Source: a virus (lineage: Duplodnaviria; Heunggongvirae; Uroviricota; Caudoviricetes). From it: DNA of 23,911 nt. A program made the translations under genes and the position numbers. The stretch is taken from the IMG/VR virus record IMGVR_UViG_2526164594_000022. One strand, 5' to 3'. Numbering within the stretch: the first letter of the stretch is position 1; each line of letters opens with the position of its first letter. A model generated the notes under the pieces. It did not search any database. It had not been told where the DNA came from and saw only the letters and a program-made list of their open reading frames with translations. Shown here in pieces: positions 9,203 to 22,885 of the stretch.

Positions 9203-9687
9203 TTGTTCTTGCCCCCTTATTTCCAGACAGGGGGGGTATCTTAAGTTAACGTTACCCGCTGACGTCGATATTCTCGCGGAGAGCGATAACCCAACGCACT
9301 GTGCGGATGGTTTTCATTGTAATGTTCGATCGCCACTGCAAGATTATGCAATGCCGTTCTTACATTCGGTTTCGGCATGAACGCGATGTAGTCTTCCTTC
9401 ATCGTTTTCACGAACCTTTCTGCAATTCCATTACTCTGAGGACTGCTGATTGCCGTTGTGCAGGGCTCCAGATTCAACTCTCTGGCGAACTGCCGTGTTT
9501 CATGCGCTCTATACGCTGAACCGTTATCTGTCAGCCACTGGATGGACTGTTCCGGTACTTTATCGCCAAAGCGTTTTTCTATCGCTCCTAACATGACATC
9601 CTGCACTGTCGCTTTATCGTAACCTCCCGTGCTTGCGGCCCAGTCTATGGCTTCACGATCGCAACAGTCCAGGGCGATTCATCTGGG
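9203..9687 (-). mobile_element. IS2-family (IS3 superfamily) remnant: 3' end only, with terminal repeat
   Basis: Minus-strand translation ..[72 protein letters not shown]...[14 protein letters not shown] resembles IS2 InsD (OrfB) C-terminus. Homology stops at a stop codon near 9687. Reverse complement of ~9203-9235 resembles the IS2 right end (TGTCTGGAAATA..GGGGCAA). Confidence 0.65.
9241..9606 (-). pseudogene. Transposase OrfB C-terminal fragment (rve integrase core) of the IS2-family remnant
   Basis: 121-aa ORF with DDE-region motifs (..TDNGSAYRA.., ..[11 protein letters not shown].., [14 protein letters not shown]); N-terminal two-thirds missing. Confidence 0.7.
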
Positions 9688-9953
9688 CCAATCCTTGCTC
9701 ATAACAGGCATTCACTTCAGTCATGGCAGAAAGGTATGCATGCTGGAGAAGTCGTGAAAGAAAAGAAGACTGCTGCGCCGTTTGTCGTCACGTTTATCTT
9801 CATTGGCTATGCAAGTCGTAATACAAGGTGGGACAAAACTGAGACACATAAGGCCTCGCAATGGCTTGCAAGGCTTTACATGTTTTGATGTGGTGGGACG
9901 TGTGAGCGCAGTGTTGATGGGGTAATGCTTTGAATTAGAAGCGGATTCTTATA

Positions 9954-9999
9954 ATTCGTAATGCGAAGGTCGTAGGTTCGACTCCTATTATCGGCACCA
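9954..9999 (+). other. 3' fragment of tRNA-Thr (thrW-type, anticodon loop to CCA): attL-like direct repeat of the P4-like element
   Basis: ATTCGTAATGCGAAGGTCGTAGGTTCGACTCCTATTATCGGCACCA matches the 3' 46 nt of tRNA-Thr(CGU) as recalled. Upstream sequence lacks the 5' half (no GCCGATA acceptor strand). Confidence 0.75.
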
Positions 10000-10161
10000 T
10001 CTCAACTTCCTCAAACGTCCGTATTAGTCCATAAAATCTCTGATTTATAACATTTTTTATTCTTTTAAGTCCATAGTAGTCCGTAACCATCCAGTAGAAT
10101 CCGGTACTGAATGTGTATAGGATTGTGTATATGTTCCTGTTCGGTCTGGATTCCTATACAC

Positions 10162-11343
10162 ATGCCTTTAAACGATATGCAGATTCGCCGCGCTAAGCCT
10201 GAAGCTAAAGCCTATACATTTGGAGATGGGCTAGGGTTGTCATTACTTATAGAACCTAATGGAAGCAAGAGTTGGCGGTTCCGCTATCGCTATGCCGGCA
10301 AACCCAAAATGATCTCGCTTGGTGTTTACCCAACGATCACCCTTGCCGATGCTCGTTCCCGTCGTGATGAAGCTCGAAAACTTGTGGCAGAAGGAAAGAA
10401 CCCTAGTGAGGTTCGAAAAGAGCAAAAGCTAGCTATGCAAACAGAGTCAGAGAACGCCTTCGAAAAGATAGCCAGAGAGTGGCATCAACTTAAATCTGCT
10501 AAATGGTCGGCGGGATATGCATCAGACATCATGGAAGCGTTTAAGAACGACATTTTTCCTTATGTCGGAACAAGGCCTGTGGGAGAGATTAAACCGCTAG
10601 AGCTGCTGAACGTTCTGCGTAAAATTGAGAAACGTGGTGCGTTGGAGAAAATGCGCAAAGTGCGGCAGCGTTGCTCCGAAGTGTTTCGCTACGCAATTGC
10701 AACGGGTAGGGCGGAGTACAATCCTGCGGCTGATCTCTCCAGCGCTCTCGAAGTACACCAATCCAATCATTTCCCATTCCTAAAAGCTGATGAGATACCT
10801 GATTTTCTACGTGCCTTAGAGGGTTACTCCGGGAGTAAGCTTGTCCAGATAGCCACGAAATTACTGATGATTACGGGTGTGAGAACCATCGAATTACGCG
10901 CGGCATTATGGCAAGAATTTGATCTGGATAACGCTATTTGGGAAATTCCTGCTGAAAGGATGAAAATGCGTAGGCCACATCTTGTGCCCTTATCATCTCA
11001 AGCGGTAGATTTACTCAATGAACTCAAGATCATGACAGGGAACTATCGTTATGTTTTTCCAGGGCGGAACGATCCGAATAGGCCAATGAGCGAAGCGAGT
11101 ATAAATCAAGCCATTAAGCGTATTGGGTATGGAGGAAAAGTCACTGGACATGGTTTTCGTCATACCCTTTCTACAATCCTGCATGAGCAAGGTTTTGAGA
11201 GTGCTTGGATTGAAATCCAGTTGGCTCATGTAGATAAAAATTCTATTAGGGGGACTTATAACCATGCTCAATATTTTAGTGGAAGGAAGTCTATGATGGA
11301 CTGGTACAGTAATTTGATATTTGAAAGACTAAAAAGGAGTTAA
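10162..11343 (+). CDS. int: P4-type tyrosine integrase
   Basis: N-terminus MPLNDMQIRRAKPEAKAYTFGDGLGLSLLIEPNGSKSWRFRYR (P4-integrase-family arm-binding region); C-terminal catalytic residues in ..GHGFRHTLSTILHEQG..LAHVDKNSIRGTYNHAQY. ORF track starts at 10111 with an unlikely Cys-rich leader. Confidence 0.85.
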   Translation: MPLNDMQIRRAKPEAKAYTFGDGLGLSLLIEPNGSKSWRFRYRYAGKPKMISLGVYPTITLADARSRRDEARKLVAEGKNPSEVRKEQKLAMQTESENAFEKIAREWHQLKSAKWSAGYASDIMEAFKNDIFPYVGTRPVGEIKPLELLNVLRKIEKRGALEKMRKVRQRCSEVFRYAIATGRAEYNPAADLSSALEVHQSNHFPFLKADEIPDFLRALEGYSGSKLVQIATKLLMITGVRTIELRAALWQEFDLDNAIWEIPAERMKMRRPHLVPLSSQAVDLLNELKIMTGNYRYVFPGRNDPNRPMSEASINQAIKRIGYGGKVTGHGFRHTLSTILHEQGFESAWIEIQLAHVDKNSIRGTYNHAQYFSGRKSMMDWYSNLIFERLKRS

Positions 11344-11346
11344 TTT

Positions 11347-11763
11347 GTGTCTCAACCACTTTCGGAAATATTGACATGGGATGATGAACAATGGGAGGTA
11401 TTTGTCCATGATTGGCTTATTGTCTGTAAATCAGATGATTACCCGTGGAGCGAACGTTTGGGAGGAGCTGGAGATAAAGGTAGAGACGTTGTTGGATATA
11501 AATCGGATCCTAACGTAGAAGGTTATTCTTGGGATAATTATCAATGCAAACTGTACAAAAAAAGTTTAGGGTTCTCTGATGTTGTAGTTGAGTTTGGAAA
11601 ACTTATCTATTTTACTCTGAATGGTGATTATCCCATCCCTCAGAAGTACTTTTTTGTGGCACCCTATGATTTATCTACTACATTTTCTAATTTATTGAAA
11701 AATAAAAACGAGCTTAAAAAAGCAGTCCTTGATTCATGGGATTCAGCAATTTCAAAAAAATAA
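11347..11763 (+). CDS. Cargo protein, N-terminal part: Mrr-like PD-(D/E)xK restriction-endonuclease-fold domain (LmuA-like effector candidate); ORF ends in an A7 run
   Basis: GTG start preceded by SD AAGGAG. Motifs WEVFVHDWL ... GGAGDKGRDVVGY ... YQCKLY fit the E...D...(Q/E)xK catalytic arrangement of Mrr-type nucleases. Stop immediately follows an A7 homopolymer at 11754-11760. Confidence 0.55.
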   Translation: MSQPLSEILTWDDEQWEVFVHDWLIVCKSDDYPWSERLGGAGDKGRDVVGYKSDPNVEGYSWDNYQCKLYKKSLGFSDVVVEFGKLIYFTLNGDYPIPQKYFFVAPYDLSTTFSNLLKNKNELKKAVLDSWDSAISKK

Positions 11764-12353
11764 CTAAAAAGATTGATATTCCATTAGATGATGAAATAAA
11801 AAAATATATTGAGGATTTTGATTTTAGTATTTTTTACTCTCTACCCTTATCATTGATTTTAAATGATATTGCAAATACACACCTTTATTTTAAGTACTTT
11901 AACGAGCTGTATGTCGTGAGAATCCCTCCAAATGAAATTCCAACATACAATTCAAAAAAAGAGTCTGTATATGTTAATGCACTGCTTCAAGCCTATTCAG
12001 AGCATGGAAATAAAACTTATAGTTCTTTCTTAGAGCTTGATGATCCATACAGACGACACTTTAATAATAGTAGAAATGATTTTTATTTTGCATCTTCGCT
12101 TGAGGTTTTTGTCCGCGAAGTATTTAAAGATGATGTATTCAAAGCATTGAAATGTTACATTTCATCTTCAATTGAACCCGTCTTTTATGAAGACCATAAT
12201 TATGCATTTATTAGGTGTAATGCAGTCTTGAAGCAGGCTGTTCTGACACCAATTGCACATTCAGTACTATCAAAAATATGTGAAGCAAATGATAAAAAAG
12301 GAATATGCCATCATTTGGTTAATGATGGTGAAGTAATTTGGACGGTGAGATAA
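11736..12353 (+). CDS. Cargo protein, probable continuation of the preceding ORF in the +1 frame (C-terminal domain of the nuclease protein)
   Basis: Open frame passes through the same A7 run; one extra A would join ..DSWDSAISKK to ITKKIDIPLDDEIKKY.., giving a ~335-aa protein. Stop overlaps the next ATG (TAATG). Confidence 0.5.
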   Translation: MGFSNFKKITKKIDIPLDDEIKKYIEDFDFSIFYSLPLSLILNDIANTHLYFKYFNELYVVRIPPNEIPTYNSKKESVYVNALLQAYSEHGNKTYSSFLELDDPYRRHFNNSRNDFYFASSLEVFVREVFKDDVFKALKCYISSSIEPVFYEDHNYAFIRCNAVLKQAVLTPIAHSVLSKICEANDKKGICHHLVNDGEVIWTVR

Positions 12354-12811
12354 TGGTTAGAATTTATAATTCAAGTTTAGAAGTGGCATGTCGAATGGCG
12401 AAAGTGCTCGTCGCTATTTATCCTTCTTCATTAAGCCTTGAACGGCTTATTTGTTTTGATTTTATTTTAGTAAATCTTAAGGATTTTTTACCTGAAGAGA
12501 TTAGTCTTCATCCTCCAATACCCCGTAGAGATGCTCAGTTAGCCCTAAAACGAGAGATTGTTTTAGAATCATTGGCTTTGTTGCAAGGCTATGAACTAGC
12601 CTCAAAAATTTATACACATCGTGGTTTTGTATATAAAGCTTCTGAAAAAACATATGCATTTACAAATTCTCTACATAATGAATATGTTGCGCAGATGGAG
12701 CATAATATAAATTTGGTGGTTAAGTTATATAGTGATATTCCTGATGAGCAGTTGCAATCAATTATAAAAAATAAAATTGGCAAATATGATATGGAATTTA
12801 ATTATGAATGA
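12353..12811 (+). CDS. Small cargo protein (~152 aa), candidate middle component (LmuC-like by position)
   Basis: ATG at 12353 overlaps the upstream stop (TAATG), suggesting translational coupling; 3' end overlaps the next ATG (ATGAATGA). No motif recognised. Confidence 0.5.
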   Translation: MVRIYNSSLEVACRMAKVLVAIYPSSLSLERLICFDFILVNLKDFLPEEISLHPPIPRRDAQLALKREIVLESLALLQGYELASKIYTHRGFVYKASEKTYAFTNSLHNEYVAQMEHNINLVVKLYSDIPDEQLQSIIKNKIGKYDMEFNYE

Positions 12812-13436
12812 CAATTTTTTTACGTTCAGAAAAATAAAGGTAACCGGATTCAATAAATTAGATGCTATAATTGAATTTGGTTCTAAATTGACTATTTTAT
12901 ATGGTGGTTCTGACTCTGGAAAAACATACATATATTATTTGATTCGATATTTATTAGGGAGTGAAAAACTAAAAAATAAAGATATCGATCATGCTCAAGG
13001 TTATGATTTAGCCTATCTGGAATTTAATTTTCAAGGTAGGGTAATGACAATTGAGAGGTCTCTTCAGGATAGCGCCCATTACAGATTATATGATTCGAGC
13101 ATTGAAAATGTTAGTGAAGCTAATCTGTTGATGGTTTTTTCCAAAAGTGCTTCGTCTAAAAAGAGTTTTTCATCATACTTTTATGGTAGGTTGAATTTCA
13201 AAGAGGCTAAAGTAAGAACAAACTTAAGTAATACTCTTCATAAATTTAATCTTAATAATGTTTTTGAATTTTTTTGTATTGATGAATTAAGAGTGTTAAC
13301 TGAGAAGTCGTTAATTCTTTCTGATATTCCTAGCGAGGAGACAAAAAGAAAGTCTGAATTTAAATTCCTTTTAACTCAGAGAGATGATACTAACTCCTTA
13401 GCAGAAAAACCAAATAAAAAAGCAAGATATTTTTAA
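12804..13436 (+). CDS. SMC/Rad50/RecF-like ABC ATPase, N-terminal head half (Walker A); LmuB-like candidate, fragment 1
   Basis: MNDNFFTFRKIKVTGFNKLDAIIEFGSKLTILYGGSDSGKTYIYYLIRYLLG: the typical SMC_N-type start (..i.i.nF...) and P-loop GGSDSGKT. Ends at an in-frame TAA that begins an A7 run. Confidence 0.6.
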   Translation: MNDNFFTFRKIKVTGFNKLDAIIEFGSKLTILYGGSDSGKTYIYYLIRYLLGSEKLKNKDIDHAQGYDLAYLEFNFQGRVMTIERSLQDSAHYRLYDSSIENVSEANLLMVFSKSASSKKSFSSYFYGRLNFKEAKVRTNLSNTLHKFNLNNVFEFFCIDELRVLTEKSLILSDIPSEETKRKSEFKFLLTQRDDTNSLAEKPNKKARYF

Positions 13437-13466
13437 AAAAATCAAATTGCAAATATTTATGAGGAA

Positions 13467-13856
13467 TTGAAAGCGCAATTAATTTATCCTGAATATGATC
13501 AAGTCATTGTTTCAAGAGAACTTGAGAAAGTAGAGCAAGATATTGAATCATCGAAAGATATATTGAAAGGTATTGTTGATGCACTTGATGATAAGAAGCA
13601 ATTATTAAAAGAGTTAAGTGATGAATTATATTCAATCAGTGACAGGGAAAAATACTTATCATTACTCATTGAAAGATTTAGTCTTCTTAAAGACCAATAC
13701 TTTATAGATCTACAAAGAATAGATGTTGTATCACAGGCGAATTTCTATTTAAATAATTTTGCAGATATTTATTGTGAGTTCTGTAATACACCGCAAAAAA
13801 AGAAAATGAAATATCATATGATGATTGTTTTTTGTCGTGTAATGCAGAAAAATTGA
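13467..13856 (+). CDS. Coiled-coil segment of the SMC-like ATPase (fragment 2), ending in CxxC
   Basis: Same frame as the preceding ORF, separated by a single TAA. Heptad-rich sequence ..ELEKVEQDIESSKDILKGIVDALDDKKQLLKELSDELYSI.. ending ..CEFCNTPQKK at an A7 run (13795-13801). Confidence 0.45.
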   Translation: MKAQLIYPEYDQVIVSRELEKVEQDIESSKDILKGIVDALDDKKQLLKELSDELYSISDREKYLSLLIERFSLLKDQYFIDLQRIDVVSQANFYLNNFADIYCEFCNTPQKKKMKYHMMIVFCRVMQKN

Positions 13857-14056
13857 AAATCAAAAGCCAGCTGAAAGGATTAATTGAATCAATCGGATCT
13901 AATGTTCGCGAACATGAATTAATTATGTTAAGAAAAAATGATGTTAATGAAATTTATCAATCAGAAAAAAGTGATTTTAAGACGTTAGAAGATAAAAATA
14001 TAAAACAATACATTCATCTCTTGAATCACTTTATGAATATAAAGACAATCTTTTAA
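13832..14056 (+). CDS. SMC-like ATPase fragment 3 (second half of a putative zinc hook, CFLSC, plus coiled coil)
   Basis: With one extra A in the A7 run the reading becomes CEFCNTPQKKENEISYDDCFLSCNAEKLKIKSQLK.., i.e. CxxC-x16-CxxxC, reminiscent of Rad50/SMC hook motifs. Confidence 0.4.
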   Translation: MSCNAEKLKIKSQLKGLIESIGSNVREHELIMLRKNDVNEIYQSEKSDFKTLEDKNIKQYIHLLNHFMNIKTIF

Positions 14057-14622
14057 TGGATCACACAAAACATAGCATTCTATCTTCATTACAAGATAAA
14101 GAAGATGATGTTGACGAACTTAAATACTCCGCCGAGGACTTTGACTCCTTAACAGTAGCTGATTTGTATGATATAGAAATAGCGATGCAAGACTTTTTGA
14201 ATGATATAAATTTTGAAAATTCTAAAGATAACAAAGTGCGATTTGACGAAGATACATATGACTTTAATATCAATGGGAAACGCCGAGGAATGTTTGGTAA
14301 AGGTACCCGTGCAGTAATGCATGCTATATTTACCATTTGCTTTGCGGAATTTTTATCAAGAAAAGGGAATCCATTCATTGGATTTGTTGTGCTTGATAGT
14401 CCATTAGTGACGCACTTTGATAAAGATAGAGGGGGTTCTCTATCGGATGTTAATAGCGTCAGTCTCAGTGATTCATTTTATCACGCATTAATCAAAAGGG
14501 ACTATAATTTCCAGATTGTAATTCTTGAGAATAAAGGTCCGACGTTCCAAATAAAAATTAATGATGCAAATAAAATCCATAACTTAAATAAGAATGGAAG
14601 CTCTGGTTTTTATCCTGTTTAA
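14056..14622 (+). CDS. SMC-like ABC ATPase, C-terminal head half (signature-like and Walker B-like motifs), fragment 4
   Basis: ..GKRRGMFGKGTRAVMHAIFTICFAEFLSRKGNPFIGFVVLDSPLVTHFDKD..QIVILENKG: signature-like GKGTRA, hydrophobic stretch plus acidic residue (VVLDSP) in Walker B position. ATG overlaps the upstream stop (TAATG). Confidence 0.55.
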   Translation: MDHTKHSILSSLQDKEDDVDELKYSAEDFDSLTVADLYDIEIAMQDFLNDINFENSKDNKVRFDEDTYDFNINGKRRGMFGKGTRAVMHAIFTICFAEFLSRKGNPFIGFVVLDSPLVTHFDKDRGGSLSDVNSVSLSDSFYHALIKRDYNFQIVILENKGPTFQIKINDANKIHNLNKNGSSGFYPV

Positions 14623-18577: not shown

Positions 18578-18900
18578 TGATATGCTGTGAATCTCTTCTG
18601 GCACTTCGTGCCGCTCTGTATCGCCGTGCCGTTGCCTGTGCCTGGCTGGCTCTAAGCAATCATCAGGAACGTTATTCCGGCCTGACGCTCGCTGAACTTG
18701 AAGATGCCATAGCCCGCGAGCTGGAAGGGTTCTATCTGCGCCAGCATGGGCAGCAAAGAGGGCTGGAAATTGCCTGCGCGTTGCTTTCGGATCTGATGGA
18801 GTCGGGGCCGCTTAAAGCCTGTCCGGTTCTCTCACTGCTCGGAATGACGGTCATGGATGAACTTTGTTCCCGTCACCTCAACAAACCAGCGCTGCACTAA
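18577..18900 (+). CDS. Small hypothetical early protein (107 aa)
   Basis: ORF immediately upstream of the primase, in operon arrangement; no motif recognised. Confidence 0.5.
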
Positions 18901-18913
18901 GGAGGGCCGCACA

Positions 18914-21247
18914 ATGTCAGGAATGAAAGTTAGCCAGGCTGAGAAAGCAGCTCGGGGTCACTGGTCAAGAATTTTACCTGCGCTGGGCGTAAATGTACTG
19001 AAAAATCGGCACCAGCCCTGCCCGGTCTGTGCCGGGAAAGACCGCTTTCGATTTGATGACCAGGAAGGGCGGGGAACGTGGTTCTGTAACCAGTGCGGGG
19101 CAGGTGATGGCCTGGCGCTTGTAAGTAAAGTACTGGATGTAGGCATTAGTGAAGCGGCAGACAGAATAAACGGCATTATCGGAAACCTGCTGCCAGTATC
19201 TCAGGGAATGCTTGAATCTGGTTCTCCTGAAAAAGAGGACGGGAGAAAAGCTGCAGCAGTGCTGGCTGCCCGTTTGTTTGATAAGTCCCGCCAGACCACT
19301 GGCAATGCCTATCTGACGAGTAAAGGGTTTCCTGCACTGCCTTGCCGGGAATTAACCGCTATGCATAAAGTCGGTGGTGTGGCATTTCGCGCGGGAGATC
19401 TTGTCGTTCCATTGTATGCAGATGGAGAGCTGGTAAATCTGCAGTTAATCAACGCTAATGGGGGCAAATGCTTCCTTAAAGGCGGTCAGGTTAAGAATGC
19501 CTTTTACCTGGTTGAAGGTACTGCCAAAGCAGCCAAACGGCTCTGGATAGCGGAAGGATATGCCACCGCACTTACTATCAACTATCTGACTGGCGATGCT
19601 GTCATGGTGGCCTTTTCGTCCGTCAATTTCCTTTCCCTGGCGAGCATTGCCTGCAGTGAGTACCCAACGCACCAGATAATTATTGCTGCTGACCGCGATC
19701 TCAACGGTGCGGGGCAAACAAGGGGCGCAGCTGTTACCGGGGCCTGCAATTGCACAATGGCGCTCCCGCCTGTGTTTGGTGACTGGAACGATGCATTCAC
19801 GCAAAACGGCGAAGAAGCCACCCGGCATGCAATTCATGAAGTAATAAAACCAGCTGTTGCCAGCCCCTTCGACACAATGAGCGAAGCTGAATTTACCGCG
19901 CTGAGCGTCAGCGAAAAAGCGCAGAGGGTAGTGGATCACTATAAAAATTCACTGGCAGTAGACCCGAACGGGCAGCTCCTTTCACGCTATGAGGCGGGGG
20001 CCTGGAAAGTTATCTATTACGCCGATTTTGCCCGTGATGTCGCTGCGCTGTTTCAGCGCCTCGACGCACCTTTTTCATCCGCGAAAATTGCGTCTCTCGT
20101 GGAAACCCTCAAACTGATCGTTCCGCAACAGCAGAATCCGGCGCGGCAACTTATCGGATTTCGCAACGGTGTGCTCGATACCCGGACAGGATTGTTCAGC
20201 CCGCACGATAAGAAGCACTGGTTACGTACGCTGTGCGAGGTGGATTACACGCAGCCCGTTGACGGTGAGTCACTGGAAACCCATGCCCCGGCATTCTGGC
20301 GCTGGCTGGATCGTGCCGCAGGTTTTAATCCTGAAAAACGGGACATTATTCTGGCTGCATTGTTTATGGTGCTGGCTAACCGTTATGACTGGCAGCTGTT
20401 TCTGGAGGTCACTGGCCCTGGCGGAAGTGGAAAGAGTATTCTTGCTGAAATAGCAACCATGCTGGCGGGTGAAGATAACGCGACCTCGGCAACCATTGAA
20501 ATGCTTGAGTCGCCAAGAGAACGAGCTGCGTTAATAGGTTTTTCACTGATTCGACTTCCCGACCAGGAAAAGTGGAGCGGTGACGGGGCCGGACTAAAAG
20601 CCATCACTGGCGGCGATGCGGTATCCGTTGATCCCAAATATCAGAACGCCTATTCAACCCACATCCCGGCGGTCATCCTGGCTGTGAACAATAATCCGAT
20701 GCGCTTCACTGATCGTAGTGGTGGAGTTTCACGCCGAAGGGTGATCCTGCATTTCCCCGACCAGATAGCCCCGGAGGAACGCGATACCCAGCTCAAAGAG
20801 AAAATTGCCAGTGAGCTAGCGGTGATTGTTCGCCAGCTTATGCAGCGTTTCAGCGACCCAATGAGTGCCAGGACATTGCTTCAGTCACAGCAGAACTCCG
20901 ATGAAGCGCTCACCATCAAACGTGATGCTGATTCAGCTTTTGATTTTTGCGGCTACCTTGAGGTCCTACCTGACACCACGGGCATGTTTATGGGGAACGC
21001 TAATATTGTTCCACGTCAGCCTCGAACTTACCTCTACCATGCCTATCTGGTCTACATGGAGGCTAACGGCTATAAAAATACGCTCAGTCTGACCATGTTT
21101 GGCAAGGGGCTACCGTTAATGCTCAAGGAATATGGGCTGCAGTATGAGAAACGACGGACCAATCAAGGAATGCAGACTAATCTGGCCCTAAGAGAGGAAA
21201 GCAATGCTGACTGGTTGCCAAAATGCGATGAGTTTGCAGCGAAATAA
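18914..21247 (+). CDS. P4 alpha-type primase-helicase (zinc-binding primase, TOPRIM, D5-type NTPase)
   Basis: Strong SD AAGGAGGG before the ATG (MSGMKVSQ..). Zn motif CPVCAGKDRFRFDD..GTWFCNQCG, Walker A GPGGSGKS, 777 codons like P4 alpha. ORF track starts upstream at 18857. Confidence 0.9.
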   Translation: MSGMKVSQAEKAARGHWSRILPALGVNVLKNRHQPCPVCAGKDRFRFDDQEGRGTWFCNQCGAGDGLALVSKVLDVGISEAADRINGIIGNLLPVSQGMLESGSPEKEDGRKAAAVLAARLFDKSRQTTGNAYLTSKGFPALPCRELTAMHKVGGVAFRAGDLVVPLYADGELVNLQLINANGGKCFLKGGQVKNAFYLVEGTAKAAKRLWIAEGYATALTINYLTGDAVMVAFSSVNFLSLASIACSEYPTHQIIIAADRDLNGAGQTRGAAVTGACNCTMALPPVFGDWNDAFTQNGEEATRHAIHEVIKPAVASPFDTMSEAEFTALSVSEKAQRVVDHYKNSLAVDPNGQLLSRYEAGAWKVIYYADFARDVAALFQRLDAPFSSAKIASLVETLKLIVPQQQNPARQLIGFRNGVLDTRTGLFSPHDKKHWLRTLCEVDYTQPVDGESLETHAPAFWRWLDRAAGFNPEKRDIILAALFMVLANRYDWQLFLEVTGPGGSGKSILAEIATMLAGEDNATSATIEMLESPRERAALIGFSLIRLPDQEKWSGDGAGLKAITGGDAVSVDPKYQNAYSTHIPAVILAVNNNPMRFTDRSGGVSRRRVILHFPDQIAPEERDTQLKEKIASELAVIVRQLMQRFSDPMSARTLLQSQQNSDEALTIKRDADSAFDFCGYLEVLPDTTGMFMGNANIVPRQPRTYLYHAYLVYMEANGYKNTLSLTMFGKGLPLMLKEYGLQYEKRRTNQGMQTNLALREESNADWLPKCDEFAAK

Positions 21248-21254
21248 CTGACCT

Positions 21255-21275
21255 AAGACCGGCTGTGCCGGTCTT
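21255..21275. terminator. Stem-loop (AAGACCGG-CTGTG-CCGGTCTT) between convergent genes; possible terminator
   Basis: 8-bp perfect stem directly after the primase stop and downstream of the convergent 318-aa gene. No clear U-tract, so the function is uncertain. Confidence 0.4.
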
Positions 21276-21379
21276 AAATCCGCTACAGGAAATTATCTCA
21301 AAATATATATCGATAAAATTTAAAAGTTATATGCTAAGGCGTCAGCGGAAAATGCATCTAATTCATTGTTAGATGATGT

Positions 21380-22336
21380 TTATTTTTGAATTGATTTAAA
21401 CATCCCATCGAGTTGTAATTTATTTATGTCGGTTTTCTTTATGGCTTTAATTAAGTTTTCAATAACTTCCAAAGAAAAAATTACATCTTTCTTTTCAATT
21501 CTAACCCCCCCGTGGTGGCTGCAAGCATTAAGGATGTCCTTTGTAATTTCAACATCATTTTTCATTAATGGTTCATAGTCCAGAGCCTCAATAACAGAAA
21601 CTAAACTACCTAGCATTTGCTCTTGGTATTGAACGTTGTTTAAATGCATTATACGAATATTAACAAGCATGAGAATATATTCTAAATATCTCCTGGCAGT
21701 ATTTCCTTTCTCTTGTAAAGAATCACGATCATATTCCTCAATACTCATGACTTCATTATGTAAAGAGGCTATTTTGTGCTCTGCTAATGAAATATTTATC
21801 GCATCCATGAGGTTTCGTGAGAAGCCTGTAGATGTAACATGACCATTTGCGGGCCTTGTTAAAATACATGTAGTATAGCAATTTATATTTGGGGTCTGGA
21901 TTGTCTCATTTACTCTTTTAACCGTTCTATAAACGTCTACCATATAAGAACCTGAGTTTTCAAATGAACATGAAGAGCATTTTGTATTATATATTCTATT
22001 TAGAGATAACTGATTGTGATAGTATCCCTTTAAGAAAGCATATATAGTGTCATTAAACTCGACAAACACAACGGACTCAATATATATATGGAATTTATCA
22101 TTGGGGTGCCACTCTAATTCAAGTCTTCTTGTAGAGTCATCAAAGGAAAAGTTTGAAATAAAATCCCAGTTACCTAAATCTATAAAATCAACGATATTTC
22201 TACCTGCACCATGGATATTTTTATTTATTAAAGTTGTGATTGAGTTTTTTATAATGTCCCAATCATGAATTTCATGATCGAATTTATTATTGATGGTTTC
22301 TTTTATTTGATTGGAAAAGTTTGAATAACTAGTCAC
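21380..22336 (-). CDS. Hypothetical 318-aa protein, AT-rich; second cargo gene of the P4-like element between primase and attR
   Basis: Long uninterrupted ORF in an AT-rich stretch convergent with the primase; no recognisable motif. Confidence 0.6.
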   Translation of the reverse strand: MTSYSNFSNQIKETINNKFDHEIHDWDIIKNSITTLINKNIHGAGRNIVDFIDLGNWDFISNFSFDDSTRRLELEWHPNDKFHIYIESVVFVEFNDTIYAFLKGYYHNQLSLNRIYNTKCSSCSFENSGSYMVDVYRTVKRVNETIQTPNINCYTTCILTRPANGHVTSTGFSRNLMDAINISLAEHKIASLHNEVMSIEEYDRDSLQEKGNTARRYLEYILMLVNIRIMHLNNVQYQEQMLGSLVSVIEALDYEPLMKNDVEITKDILNACSHHGGVRIEKKDVIFSLEVIENLIKAIKKTDINKLQLDGMFKSIQK

Positions 22337-22866
22337 TTGTTAGCCTCAAAATTAATAATGAGTATTAAAATTTAATTGATATTGTCTATAAAATGTAGCG
22401 ATGCAATTTTATTGCAACGAAATGATTTTTACAACATACCATTATCGCTAAACAAAATCGCACCCATCAAATCAACTTACGTTACAATCACTACAAAGCG
22501 ATTGCATTTAAATTCAAAACAGTTTTCTGTTGGGCGCATTTTTTGTTGTACTGGACTAAAGAGAAAAAATGGGGTAAGGAACAAATACCTTCCGTGCTCA
22601 AAAATTAGGTTTTTATGCACTTATTAATCAGTCAAGGTGAACAGTAAAGTGTTCACTTCTTATCAATCGTTAATTTCATATCTTTTTGAATATTAATGAA
22701 AAAAAACACAATGAGTAGTATGAACAGTTTTCCCCCAAAAAAAGTTTTTTCTGCCTTGAGAATGCGCGGAAAGCGAACGCCTTCACCAATGTGTATAGGG
22801 GTGTGTGTAGTTTAAATCTTCTATTTTAATTTATGTATTAAAATCATTGTGTTGGTGGCGATTATT

Positions 22867-22885
22867 GGTTCCTATTATCGCACCA
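22867..22885 (+). repeat. attR-like direct repeat of the tRNA-Thr 3' end
   Basis: GGTTCCTATTATCGCACCA versus the left copy GGTTCGACTCCTATTATCGGCACCA: shared core CCTATTATCG(G)CACCA in the same orientation. Confidence 0.6.

What the first reader, a model, noticed from the sequence alone, without database searches (positions are those of the whole stretch)
21380..22336. Second AT-rich cargo gene between the primase and attR
Seen in sequence: a 318-aa uninterrupted ORF, strongly AT-rich, convergent with the primase and separated from it by a perfect 8-bp stem-loop; no motif I can recognise. Inference: single-gene accessory cargo, possibly an abortive-infection or other defence protein, in a second variable slot of the satellite.
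Basis: inference. Interest (0 to 1): 0.5.

Follow-up and report, generated by a model that had tools for sequence, protein, structure and literature searches.

The report
Orphan HEPN RNase-like cargo gene
A real, conserved but uncharacterised gene rides as a 1.36-kb single-gene cargo in the minor defence slot of a P4-like phage satellite of E. coli O157:H7, and its C-terminal half looks like the RNA-cutting domain of known anti-phage suicide nucleases, making it a plausible but untested new defence gene.

Summary
Window 21380-22336 (-) is an intact 318-codon gene with 31% GC. It is convergent with the P4 alpha primase and lies about 100 nt from a perfect 10-bp hairpin. Purifying selection is strong (dN/dS 0.06-0.13).

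The gene sits in a discrete 1,358-bp module (21276-22633) inserted between the alpha terminator and the att-proximal region. The satellite itself is bounded by thrW att copies. Related satellites carry a SIR2-like gene, an HNH/type IV restriction-like gene, or nothing at the same junction, and this slot is a published minor P4 defence hotspot.

The protein matches no Pfam, PADLOC, PHROG or NCBIfam family. A confident AlphaFold model shows two domains:
- an N-terminal beta-rich domain with no clear structural relative;

The family's only invariant residues are R215-x3-E219...S273-H274. This reproduces the mutationally validated Arg-x3-Glu...(Ser)His triad of the PrrC/RloC anticodon nucleases. 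The canonical Rx4-6H motif and the ABC-ATPase domain are absent.

Homologues occur alone on other mobile elements: an ICE, a lambdoid prophage, a P2 remnant and an integrase islet.

Best reading is a sensor-plus-HEPN RNase abortive-infection candidate. This is inferred, not demonstrated.

The parts
21380..22336 (-). 318-aa protein-coding gene (= RefSeq WP_000205213.1, 'hypothetical protein'); GTG start; stop codon at 21380-21382
   Evidence: ORF listing; 100% identical annotated CDS in O157:H7 genomes; dN/dS 0.06-0.13; the exact protein was seen on at least 1000 contigs
21833..22336 (-). Codons 1-168: N-terminal alpha/beta domain (two helices, then a roughly 10-strand antiparallel meander). 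It carries the family signature G45..D50-F51-x-D53-x-x-N56-W57-D58. Proposed sensor or regulatory domain.
21383..21829 (-). Codons 170-318: C-terminal all-helical HEPN-fold domain, the proposed RNase effector
21668..21694 (-). Codons 215-223 (RRYLEYILM): invariant R215 and E219 of the family motif N212-x2-R215-R216-x2-E219-x2-L222-K223. K223 is Met in this subfamily.
   Evidence: Column statistics over 67 diverse family members: R215 67/67, E219 67/67, K223 65/67. Same R-x3-E spacing as the PrrC R320/E324 and RloC R692/E696 catalytic residues.
21506..21529 (-). Codons 270-277 (NACSHHGG): family motif N270-x2-S273-H274-D-[ST]-G277 with invariant H274, in the loop between the last two long helices
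   Evidence: N270 64/67, S273 64/67, H274 67/67, G277 61/67. RloC motif 'Arg-X3-Glu-X36-52-His where Ser often precedes His' (PMC2610378). The family's E-to-H spacing is 50-83 residues, mode 53.
22344..22347 (-). GAGG Shine-Dalgarno sequence, 7 nt upstream of the GTG start
   Evidence: Read directly from the sequence. Homology with the 77% allele in a second satellite lineage begins 29 nt upstream of the start codon and so includes this element.
21250..21280 (.). GC-rich hairpin shared by the two convergent genes. Perfect 10-bp stem at 21254-21276; 14 pairs on the minus-strand RNA, followed by a U-rich tail. It is the backbone terminator of alpha; the cargo begins immediately after the stem.
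   Evidence: Terminator-like call; RNA fold z = -4.1. The cargo-less relative LR-03 has the same hairpin with a T7 run, and homology to the window ends at 21275.
21276..22633 (.). The 1,358-bp AT-rich cargo module (GC 0.311): 104-bp 3' flank, the ORF, and a 297-bp 5' flank with no conserved partner gene
   Evidence: Breakpoints against cargo-less L016. An equivalent 1,357-bp versus 18-bp presence/absence polymorphism exists between L017 and L016 at one chromosomal site. GC content.
22634..22750 (.). Backbone segment conserved in satellites that lack the cargo. It contains the inverted repeat GTGAACAGTAAAGTGTTCAC (22637-22656). This may be the P4 crr-type alpha-binding region, but that identification is from memory and was not tested.
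   Evidence: 73.7% match to the segment directly after the alpha terminator in L016; also conserved in L017/L018; TGTTCAC matches
22863..22885 (+). attR: degenerate copy of the thrW 3' end (GGTTCCTATTATCGCACCA at 22867-22885). The conserved E. coli backbone resumes here.
   Evidence: About 3,670 E. coli genomes match only from 22863-22870 onward, some with tRNA-Thr annotated under the match. Compare the attL copy.
9953..9999 (+). attL: 47-nt partial thrW copy ending in TCCTATTATCGGCACCA, immediately upstream of the P4-type integrase gene (real start about 10163)
   Evidence: Sequence and pattern search. The integrase is annotated as 393 aa in RefSeq. Arm-type repeat pair at 10110-10131 and 22788-22809.
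18857..21247 (+). P4 alpha-type primase-helicase gene, the core gene bordering the slot
   Evidence: RefSeq annotation 'primase-helicase zinc-binding domain-containing protein'. 76-94% amino-acid identity to alpha of other P4-like elements.

Best explanation
The gene encodes a stand-alone two-domain protein carried as a self-contained cargo module in the alpha-to-att slot of a P4-like satellite integrated at thrW.

Shown:
- It is a real gene under purifying selection.
- It is mobile on its own among unrelated mobile elements.
- It occupies a slot that holds defence-type genes in sister satellites.
- Its C-terminal half has a HEPN fold.
- The only invariant residues of the whole family are an Arg-x3-Glu pair on one helix and a Ser-His in the loop before the last long helix.

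Inferred:
- The HEPN domain is a metal-independent endoribonuclease that uses this Arg/Glu/His set as PrrC and RloC do. Like other HEPN RNases, it probably acts as a dimer or higher oligomer.
- The unrelated N-terminal beta-rich domain, with its conserved D50/D53/W57/D58 cluster, keeps the nuclease off until it binds a phage-derived protein or ligand.
- Activation cleaves tRNA or other cellular RNA, stops translation, and aborts infection of the cell that carries the satellite.
- Low basal expression is expected from the GTG start, the AT-rich rare-codon body and the AT-rich promoter region. It would limit self-toxicity, as argued for RloC.
For: Gene reality.

Cargo module and slot:
- att sites and backbone breakpoints.
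- Clean 1,357-bp versus 18-bp polymorphism.
- Slot occupants in relatives are SIR2-like (PADLOC E 3.8e-9), HNH/type IV REase-like (1e-10), or nothing.
- Published statement of a minor defence hotspot between the primase and an att site, holding 7% of P4 defence systems (PMC13586616).

Autonomy:
- Homology to the ICE copy is confined to the ORF.
- Homologues sit next to an orphan methylase and ArdC on a conjugative element.
- One follows a P4-type integrase at thrW, beside a PDC-M60-like gene.
- One is in a lambdoid prophage.
- One is beside ogr of a P2 remnant that also has a GmrSD-like gene.
- Others are solitary islets in Proteus and Serratia.

Catalytic-type residues:
- R215, E219 and H274 are invariant; S273 and N270 are 64/67 each; K223 is 65/67.
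- PrrC R320/E324/H356 and RloC R692/E696/H737 are required for anticodon nuclease activity. RloC motif: 'Arg-X3-Glu-X36-52-His, Ser often precedes His'.
- E-x3-K fits the HEPN Ex3[KR] motif.
- Weak but recurrent Pfam hits to the C-terminal end of AAA_13: positions 602-712 of 713, E 3.9e-5 in one member, and 3 of 67 others.

Mechanistic precedent: RAZR is a small sensor domain plus a divergent HEPN that is activated by direct binding of phage proteins and then cleaves RNA (PMC13017515).
Against: - No experiment of any kind bears on this protein. It appears in no searchable paper.
- The target protein matches no HEPN, DUF4145, AAA_13 or PADLOC model. The HEPN assignment therefore rests on a predicted structure.
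- The canonical Rx4-6H arginine is absent from the target and present in only 14 of 67 relatives.
- K223 of the Ex3K motif is Met in this subfamily.
- The E-to-H spacing (50-83) is mostly longer than in PrrC (31) or RloC (36-52).
I could not model a dimer either.
- Some HEPN domains are non-catalytic binding modules.
- In the Citrobacter ICE the neighbours (orphan methylase, ArdC) are anti-restriction genes. That fits a counter-defence role as well as a defence role.
- In Proteus and Serratia the gene sits among housekeeping genes, with no defence neighbours.
Confidence: 0.55

Rival explanations
1. It is a counter-defence or anti-restriction accessory protein. The mobile element would carry it to protect itself or its helper from host immunity, for example by binding or degrading an RNA or nucleotide signal, rather than to kill infected cells.
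For: - The closest non-E. coli homologue (80% identity) lies between an orphan N6/N4 DNA methylase and ArdC on a conjugative element.
- HEPN domains can be non-catalytic binders.
Against: - The same slot in sister satellites holds SIR2-like and restriction-like genes, not anti-defence genes.
- RloC, a bona fide defence nuclease, is itself reported linked to ArdC in two cases.
- Strict invariance of an Arg/Glu/His set identical in pattern to an RNase triad argues for catalysis.
Confidence: 0.12
2. It is the toxin of an addiction or stabilisation module (HEPN toxin). Its role would be to keep the satellite or island in the genome, with an antitoxin that is either the N-terminal domain in cis or an unrecognised small gene or RNA nearby.
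For: - The gene persists intact in at least 1000 O157 contigs, while the Lamassu genes of the same satellite are fragmented.
Against: - No partner is conserved. Flanks share no homology between the satellite and ICE copies.
- The 5' flank is not alignable even between two satellite lineages.
- No MNT-like gene was found in any context.
- Solitary copies sit in chromosomal islets that have no element to stabilise.
Confidence: 0.1
3. It is a satellite-specific life-cycle factor, for example one that modulates the P2 helper, replication at the adjacent crr-like region, or excision, and is not a general defence gene.
For: - It lies next to alpha and to the conserved inverted repeat near att.
- It has co-diverged with the backbone in a second P4-like lineage (75.5% nt identity from the RBS through the alpha 3' end).
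- Two homologues lie beside ogr/delta genes.
Against: - Close relatives of the satellite lack it entirely.
- Homologues occur on an ICE, on a lambdoid prophage and in islets with no P2 or P4 genes.
Confidence: 0.06
4. It is a nucleotidyltransferase-plus-HEPN protein of the kanamycin nucleotidyltransferase or LinB type. In this reading the N-terminal acidic cluster binds metal and nucleotide, and the helical domain only binds substrate.
For: - Pol-beta-fold enzymes (Rel, SpoT, LinB, CdnE, TUTases) recur among the N-domain hits.
- D50, D53 and D58 are conserved.
Against: - The G[GS]-x9-13-DxD signature is absent.
- The aligned lengths for the ANT hits (117-133 residues) cover only the helical domain.
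- NTase-associated HEPN domains typically lose their conserved polar residues, whereas this family keeps an invariant R/E/H set.
Confidence: 0.05

Closest known systems
PrrC / RloC anticodon nucleases (HEPN family 'PrrC/RloC/APECO1_4465')
   Same: - C-terminal HEPN-type domain.
- The family's invariant residues form the same Arg-x3-Glu ... (Ser)His pattern that mutagenesis showed to be essential in PrrC (R320/E324/H356) and RloC (R692/E696/H737).
- Weak Pfam matches of family members to the C-terminal end of AAA_13.
- Non-ATG start and codon usage suggest low expression, as noted for rloC. One homologue is linked to ArdC, as are two rloC genes.
   Different: - No ABC-ATPase or Rad50-like N-terminal domain. 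A 165-residue beta-rich domain of unknown affinity takes its place.
- No linkage to a type I R-M locus in the window.
- The E-to-H spacing is longer (50-83 versus 31-52).
- The target protein gives no Pfam or PADLOC hit.
- tRNA cleavage is untested.
RAZR (ring-activated zinc-finger RNase; zinc finger + DUF4145 divergent HEPN)
   Same: - A small single-protein system with an N-terminal recognition domain and a C-terminal divergent HEPN that sequence models barely recognise.
- It acts by abortive infection through RNA cleavage after direct binding of phage proteins (PMC13017515).
- Two to three family members give marginal DUF4145 hits (E 0.04-0.07).
   Different: - No Cys4 zinc ribbon.
- RAZR's catalytic pair is R146/H154 within one motif. 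Here the arginine at that position is missing, and the invariant Arg lies about 59 residues upstream of the His.
- No PADLOC hit of any kind for any of the 67 family members.
Defence cargo of P4-like satellite hotspots (psu-int hotspot, Rousset 2022; minor primase-att hotspot, NAR 2026)
   Same: - AT-rich, swap-prone cargo inside an att-bounded P4-like element.
- Located between the primase gene and att, exactly the minor hotspot described.
- Sister elements carry recognisable defence genes there.
   Different: - The gene is not detected by any defence catalogue used here.
- It is not named in the main text of either paper. The supplements of the NAR 2026 paper (PMC13586616) were not available as text; those of Rousset 2022 were not looked up.
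- No phenotype is known.
Single-protein HEPN Abi proteins (AbiD/AbiF 'Abi2', AbiJ, AbiV, AbiU2, ApeA)
   Same: Stand-alone or two-domain HEPN proteins on mobile elements, proposed or shown to abort phage infection.
   Different: - No sequence match to any of their Pfam or PADLOC models.
- The canonical Rx4-6H motif is not conserved.

Membership tests
HEPN superfamily | All-alpha up-and-down helical bundle fold | tested here: met
HEPN superfamily | Rx4-6H catalytic motif before the last core helix | tested here: not met
   H274 is invariant and sits at the expected place, in the loop before helix 282-301. The position 7 residues upstream is Asp in the target and Arg in only 14/67 relatives. Anantharaman 2013 lists families that keep H and use another basic residue; R215 could play that role, but this is inference.
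HEPN superfamily | Second conserved acidic residue in an Ex3[KR] motif | tested here: met
   E219 is 67/67 and K223 is 65/67. In the target's own subfamily K223 is replaced by Met.
HEPN superfamily | Metal-independent endoRNase activity | not testable with these tools
   Needs biochemistry.
PrrC/RloC anticodon nucleases | Arg-x3-Glu ... (Ser)His catalytic triad in the C-terminal domain | tested here: met
   R215-x3-E219-x54-S273-H274 in the target. The triad is invariant in 67/67 members; Ser precedes His in 64/67; spacing is 50-83. Published values are x31 for PrrC and x36-52 for RloC. This is a pattern match only; homology of the positions was not proven by alignment to PrrC or RloC sequences.
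PrrC/RloC anticodon nucleases | N-terminal ABC-ATPase (Walker A/B, signature motif) regulating the nuclease | tested here: not met
PrrC/RloC anticodon nucleases | Sequence-model match (Pfam AAA_13 covers RloC-like proteins including their C-terminus) | tested here: inconclusive
   The target gives no hit. Three of 67 relatives hit (best E 7.8e-4), and fragment P0115 hits at E 3.9e-5 to profile positions 602-712 of 713. All are below the curated cut-off. That this part of AAA_13 is the nuclease domain is my inference from RloC residue numbering.
PrrC/RloC anticodon nucleases | Genetic linkage to a type I R-M locus (PrrC) | tested here: not met
   No R-M genes in the satellite. Only the Citrobacter ICE copy lies about 5 kb from hsdM/hsdS genes.
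DUF4145 (PF13643) / RAZR | Match to the PF13643 model | tested here: not met
   No hit for the target at E<=10. Marginal hits only in 2/67 members (E 0.042) and in P0112 (E 0.073, profile positions 9-81 of 88).
DUF4145 (PF13643) / RAZR | N-terminal Cys4 zinc ribbon (RAZR) and an R...H pair in one motif (R146/H154) | tested here: not met
   No Cys4 pattern in residues 1-165 (alignment). No conserved Arg 7-8 residues before H274. No consistent PADLOC hit for any of the 67 family members (six unrelated models, one member each, E 0.0025-0.065).
P4-like satellite defence-hotspot cargo | Lies inside an att-bounded P4-like element, between a core gene and att | tested here: met
   attL 9953-9999 and attR 22863-22885. 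Core genes int, delta, psu, sid and alpha are present. The gene lies between alpha and attR.
P4-like satellite defence-hotspot cargo | Slot content varies among closely related elements and includes recognised defence genes | tested here: met
   A30 carries an HNH/mREase_IV-like gene, AR_0019 a SIR2-like gene, and LR-03 has an empty slot. Clean indel of the module. Literature statement.
P4-like satellite defence-hotspot cargo | Confers resistance to phage infection | not testable with these tools
   Needs plaque assays.
HEPN-MNT type II toxin-antitoxin | Adjacent minimal nucleotidyltransferase or other antitoxin gene conserved with the toxin | tested here: not met
   No conserved neighbour in 10 different contexts. 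Flanks are not conserved.

The most novel reading that the evidence does not exclude
The family is a previously unrecognised class of single-protein anticodon-nuclease-type immune effectors. In it, the PrrC/RloC Arg-Glu-His RNase module has been uncoupled from its ABC-ATPase and R-M partners and fused to a compact new beta-rich sensor domain. It can then work as a 1.36-kb plug-in on satellites, prophages and ICEs, and is triggered directly by a phage component.
Probability: 0.35. Interest if true: 0.55.

Novelty: new variant of a known kind. Interest (0 to 1): 0.42.

Why it matters
If the prediction holds, this would add an uncatalogued single-gene defence family. About 108 clusters at 50% identity were found among 1.8 billion representatives, and none is detected by PADLOC or Pfam.

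It would be a minimal form of the PrrC/RloC-type nuclease, regulated by a new sensor domain instead of an ATPase. That would give a small, tractable system for asking how HEPN nucleases are kept silent and then switched on.

It would also provide a concrete, testable example for the little-studied primase-to-att hotspot of P4-like satellites. The gene is fixed in the O157:H7 lineage: 307 of 5,426 complete E. coli genomes carry it, nearly all of them O157. In that lineage the satellite's main-hotspot Lamassu system appears broken, so this gene may be the satellite's only working cargo.

In a wider view the result is incremental. Satellites are already known to be reservoirs of defence genes, and HEPN effectors are common.

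Tried and rejected

3. Direct sequence link to DUF4145 or other HEPN Pfam families:
- The profile of the C-terminal domain (A4) against PDB sequences gave only designed helical repeats.
- Two word-indexed searches with A4 returned only close relatives. The second was wasted.
- Pfam on 67 + 10 members gave only marginal DUF4145, HEPN_Swt1 and AAA_13 hits.

4. PADLOC on the target and on all 67 relatives gave nothing consistent. PHROGs and NCBIfam gave nothing significant.

5. Foldseek against AFDB50 was unavailable. BFVD with the N-domain gave no hit with E<=0.001.

6. The scan of one genome per species found a single locus. The phage and plasmid collections gave one marginal hit and one fragmentary hit.

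7. Fusion partners in longer relatives (DUF3775, otherwise nothing) were uninformative.

8. Promoter-like hexamers upstream of the ORF are no more frequent than in shuffled sequence, so no promoter is claimed.

9. Literature searches for the accession and for the O157 element name found nothing useful.

10. I could not obtain PrrC, RloC or RAZR sequences for a profile-profile comparison. I could not obtain model coordinates to measure distances between R215, E219 and H274.
Full report
**Where the window comes from.** The region is 100% identical to chromosomes of E. coli O157:H7. It lies just downstream of proA and tRNA-Thr (thrW).

Window 1-9950 is a degraded lambdoid prophage. It carries a LexA-family repressor, Cro, CII, a frameshifted replication gene, tail-fibre genes, pin and IS3 remnants.

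A 47-nt partial copy of thrW at 9953-9999 ends that prophage and starts a P4-like satellite. The satellite carries, in order:
- an integrase (real start about 10163);
- an AT-rich cargo block;
- ogr/delta, psu and sid;
- a regulatory region;
- the alpha primase-helicase gene, 18857-21247.

A degenerate copy of the thrW 3' end lies at 22867-22885. It marks attR, because about 3,670 E. coli genomes match the window only from 22863-22870 onward, some with tRNA-Thr annotated under the match. A pair of 22-nt repeats at 10110-10131 and 22788-22809 flanks the two att copies at arm-like distances. The gene under study therefore lies inside the satellite, between alpha and attR.

**The observation.** The ORF at 21380-22336 (-) is intact and encodes 318 aa.
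- It has a GTG start with GAGG 7 nt upstream.
- Homologues start at the same codon with ATG or TTG.
- GC is 0.313, against 0.523 for alpha.
- At that composition an open frame of this length has a chance probability of roughly 1e-11 (my arithmetic).
- dN/dS against alleles from Citrobacter, Providencia and a second E. coli lineage is 0.06-0.13.
- All alleles are AT-rich (GC 0.28-0.34) whatever the host.
- The exact protein occurs on at least 1000 contigs and is always called hypothetical.

The hairpin is a perfect 10-bp stem at 21254-21276. On the minus-strand RNA it extends to 14 pairs followed by a U-rich tail, and it scored as terminator-like. The fold z-score is -4.1.

**The cargo module.** A related satellite without cargo (strain LR-03, locus L016) aligns with the window up to 21275, which is the end of the hairpin stem. 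In LR-03 a T7 run follows. The alignment resumes at 22634-22750. The insert is thus 21276-22633, or 1,358 bp.

A second satellite lineage (L017/L018) carries a 77%-identical allele in the same place and orientation. It sits at the same chromosomal site as LR-03. The two differ by 1,357 bp versus 18 bp exactly between the hairpin and the conserved inverted repeat.

In L017 the similarity to the window is about 75% nt. It runs from 29 nt upstream of the start codon through the ORF and the hairpin into alpha. The gene has therefore been resident long enough to co-diverge with the backbone.

Other relatives show different contents in the slot:
- Strain A30 (alpha protein 94% identical) carries an HNH protein that matches a type IV restriction model (PADLOC E 1e-10).
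- Strain AR_0019 (alpha protein 82% identical) carries a SIR2-like protein (E 3.8e-9).

[quoted passage not shown] The well-known hotspot is psu-int (PMC9122126).

**The gene travels alone.** Nucleotide homology between the O157 copy and an 80%-identical Citrobacter copy is confined to the ORF. Contexts of homologues:

| Context |
|---|
| Conjugative element, between an orphan N6/N4 methylase and ArdC, near type I R-M genes |
| Directly after a P4-type integrase at thrW, next to a PDC-M60-like gene |
| Lambdoid prophage of Pantoea |
| Beside ogr of a degraded P2-like prophage that also carries a GmrSD-like gene |
| Beside an Ogr/Delta gene in Providencia |
| Solitary islets with long non-coding flanks in Proteus and Serratia |

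No partner gene recurs.

The family is rare:
- 36 clusters at 90% identity among 5.8 billion proteins;
- 108 representatives at 50% identity among 1.84 billion;
- one marginal hit in 50,697 phage genomes and one fragmentary hit in 72,556 plasmids.

**What the protein is.** No Pfam, PADLOC, PHROG or NCBIfam model matches it. PADLOC gives no consistent hit for any of 67 diverse relatives.

AlphaFold2 with the family alignment gives a confident two-domain model (pLDDT 87.6, pTM 0.83).

- sacsin HEPN;
- then Csm6, AbiA and Las1.

*Conserved residues.* Across 67 members that are only 16-44% identical to the target, three positions are invariant: R215, E219 and H274. They sit in two motifs:
- N212-x2-R215-R216-x2-E219-x2-L222-K223;
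- N270-x2-S273-H274-D-[ST]-G277.

The HEPN survey (PMC3710099) defines the superfamily by an Rx4-6H motif and an Ex3[KR] motif. The second motif is present here: E219-x3-K223, although K223 is Met in the target's subfamily. The first is not. An Arg 7 residues before H274 occurs in only 14 of 67 members, and the target has Asp there.

The invariant trio has the published pattern of the anticodon nucleases:
- PrrC needs R320, E324 and H356 (PMC1484252).
- RloC shares 'Arg-X3-Glu-X36-52-His (where Ser often precedes His)', confirmed by mutagenesis of R692, E696 and H737 (PMC2610378).
- In this family the pattern is R-x3-E-x50-83-S-H, with mode 53.

Some members also give weak Pfam hits:
- to the extreme C-terminus of AAA_13, the model that covers RloC-like proteins (E 3.9e-5 for one fragment, 3 of 67 others);
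- to DUF4145 (E 0.04-0.07);
- to HEPN_Swt1 (E 0.14).

These support a distant relationship, but they do not reach curated thresholds.

**Most likely mechanism.** My best reading, at 0.55, is an autoinhibited sensor-plus-HEPN RNase that acts by abortive infection. The N-terminal domain would recognise a phage product and release the nuclease, which would cut tRNA or other RNA and stop translation.

RAZR gives a precedent for this logic. It is a small recognition domain fused to a divergent HEPN, it is switched on by direct binding of phage portal or Gp77 rings, and it then cleaves RNA (PMC13017515).

Steps that are shown: gene reality, modular mobility, slot variability, HEPN fold (on a predicted structure) and the conserved trio. 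Steps that are inferred: RNase activity, regulation by the N-domain, the phage trigger and the defence phenotype.

**Rivals.**
- A counter-defence role, suggested by the methylase and ArdC neighbours.
- An addiction toxin. No partner was found.
- A satellite life-cycle factor. This is contradicted by cargo-less relatives and by contexts with no P4 genes.
- An NTase-plus-binding-domain enzyme. The structural hints are only weak.

**Comparison and novelty.** The protein works most like PrrC/RloC in its nuclease chemistry and like RAZR in its architecture logic. It fails membership of both:
- It has no ABC-ATPase and no R-M linkage.
- It has no zinc ribbon and no match to the DUF4145 model.

It belongs to the known kind 'HEPN effector carried in a mobile-element defence hotspot', but as an uncatalogued family with a new partner domain and a non-canonical motif. 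I therefore rate it a new variant of a known kind. Interest is moderate, because everything beyond fold and context awaits a simple phage-challenge experiment.

Noticed in passing
window 11347-14622: The satellite's main hotspot, between the integrase gene and the delta-psu-sid block (delta is the adjacent gene here), encodes a Lamassu system of the ABC-3C type that looks pseudogenised. LmuA is split over two overlapping ORFs (11347-11763 matches model positions 10-140; 11736-12353 matches 141-333). LmuC/MC2 is intact (12338-12811). LmuB is split over three ORFs (12777-13436, 13467-13856 and 14056-14622, covering model positions 3-199, 230-329 and 428-608 of 610). The alpha-side cargo gene may therefore be the only intact cargo of this element.
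   Followed up: partly
L027 905-1853 (IMG/VR UViG_2923272612_000005): A near-identical copy of the satellite has about 8 small indels and a few substitutions, nearly all within or just 3' of this ORF. Its alpha and int proteins are 99.7% identical to the window's. The 300-bp upstream flank carries only a single substitution, and the 2.4-kb alpha gene is intact. This is either targeted inactivation of a costly gene or sequencing error in AT-rich homopolymers.
   Followed up: partly
window 3101-3208: Five tandem 18-23-nt repeats (TATCCCTCAAAACGAGGG and variants) lie inside the frameshifted replication gene of the upstream lambdoid prophage remnant. They look like lambda-type ori iterons; that recognition is from memory.
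   Followed up: no
window 1-9999: Two elements are integrated in tandem at thrW. A degraded lambdoid prophage (cI-like repressor, cro, cII, broken O/P-like genes, tail-fibre genes, pin invertase, GIY-YIG protein, AraC regulator, IS3/IS1203 pieces) is followed by a 47-nt partial thrW copy (9953-9999) that serves as attL of the P4-like satellite. In some O157 strains IS1203 has deleted most of the first element.
   Followed up: partly
window 22637-22656 (and L016 4997-5113, L017 7683-7714): The inverted repeat GTGAACAGTAAAGTGTTCAC lies just outside the cargo module. It is conserved in P4-like satellites with and without the cargo, and LR-03 has several more GTGAACAG/TGTTCAC copies. It may be the crr-type alpha-binding replication element of P4, which would mean the cargo is wedged between alpha and crr. 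The motif count in the window is not above chance.
   Followed up: partly
window 10110-10131 and 22788-22809: A 22-nt direct repeat (AATGTGTATAGGATTGTGTATA / AATGTGTATAGGGGTGTGTGTA) lies about 110 nt inside attL and about 60 nt inside attR. The two copies are candidate arm-type integrase binding sites. The mechanical ORF call for int (10111) starts inside the first copy, whereas RefSeq and N-terminal homology place the start at 10163.
   Followed up: no
L015 5039-6136 (E. coli AR_0019) and L014 5055-5912 (E. coli A30): Alternative occupants of the same alpha-to-att slot. One is a 365-aa protein annotated hypothetical, with no Pfam hit at E<=0.001 (it matches PADLOC SIR2 models at E 3.8e-9). 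The other is a 285-aa HNH protein that matches a type IV methyl-directed restriction model. Both are single-gene defence candidates.
   Followed up: partly
L019 9446-14327 / L020 2923-7804: In another thrW island, the 45%-identical homologue sits directly after the integrase gene. It is followed by a convergent three-gene block: a 387-aa protein with a PDC-M60C-like N-terminus, a 149-aa receiver-like protein, and a 1091-aa Y4jQ-family protein. This is a candidate multi-gene defence system.
   Followed up: no
L006-L009 (Proteus) and L011-L013 (Serratia), gene at 10001-10900/10966: In these genera the homologue is a solitary islet among housekeeping genes, with roughly 0.5-1.2 kb of non-coding DNA on at least one side and no integrase or other mobile-element gene within 10 kb. 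How the gene was acquired there is unexplained.
   Followed up: no
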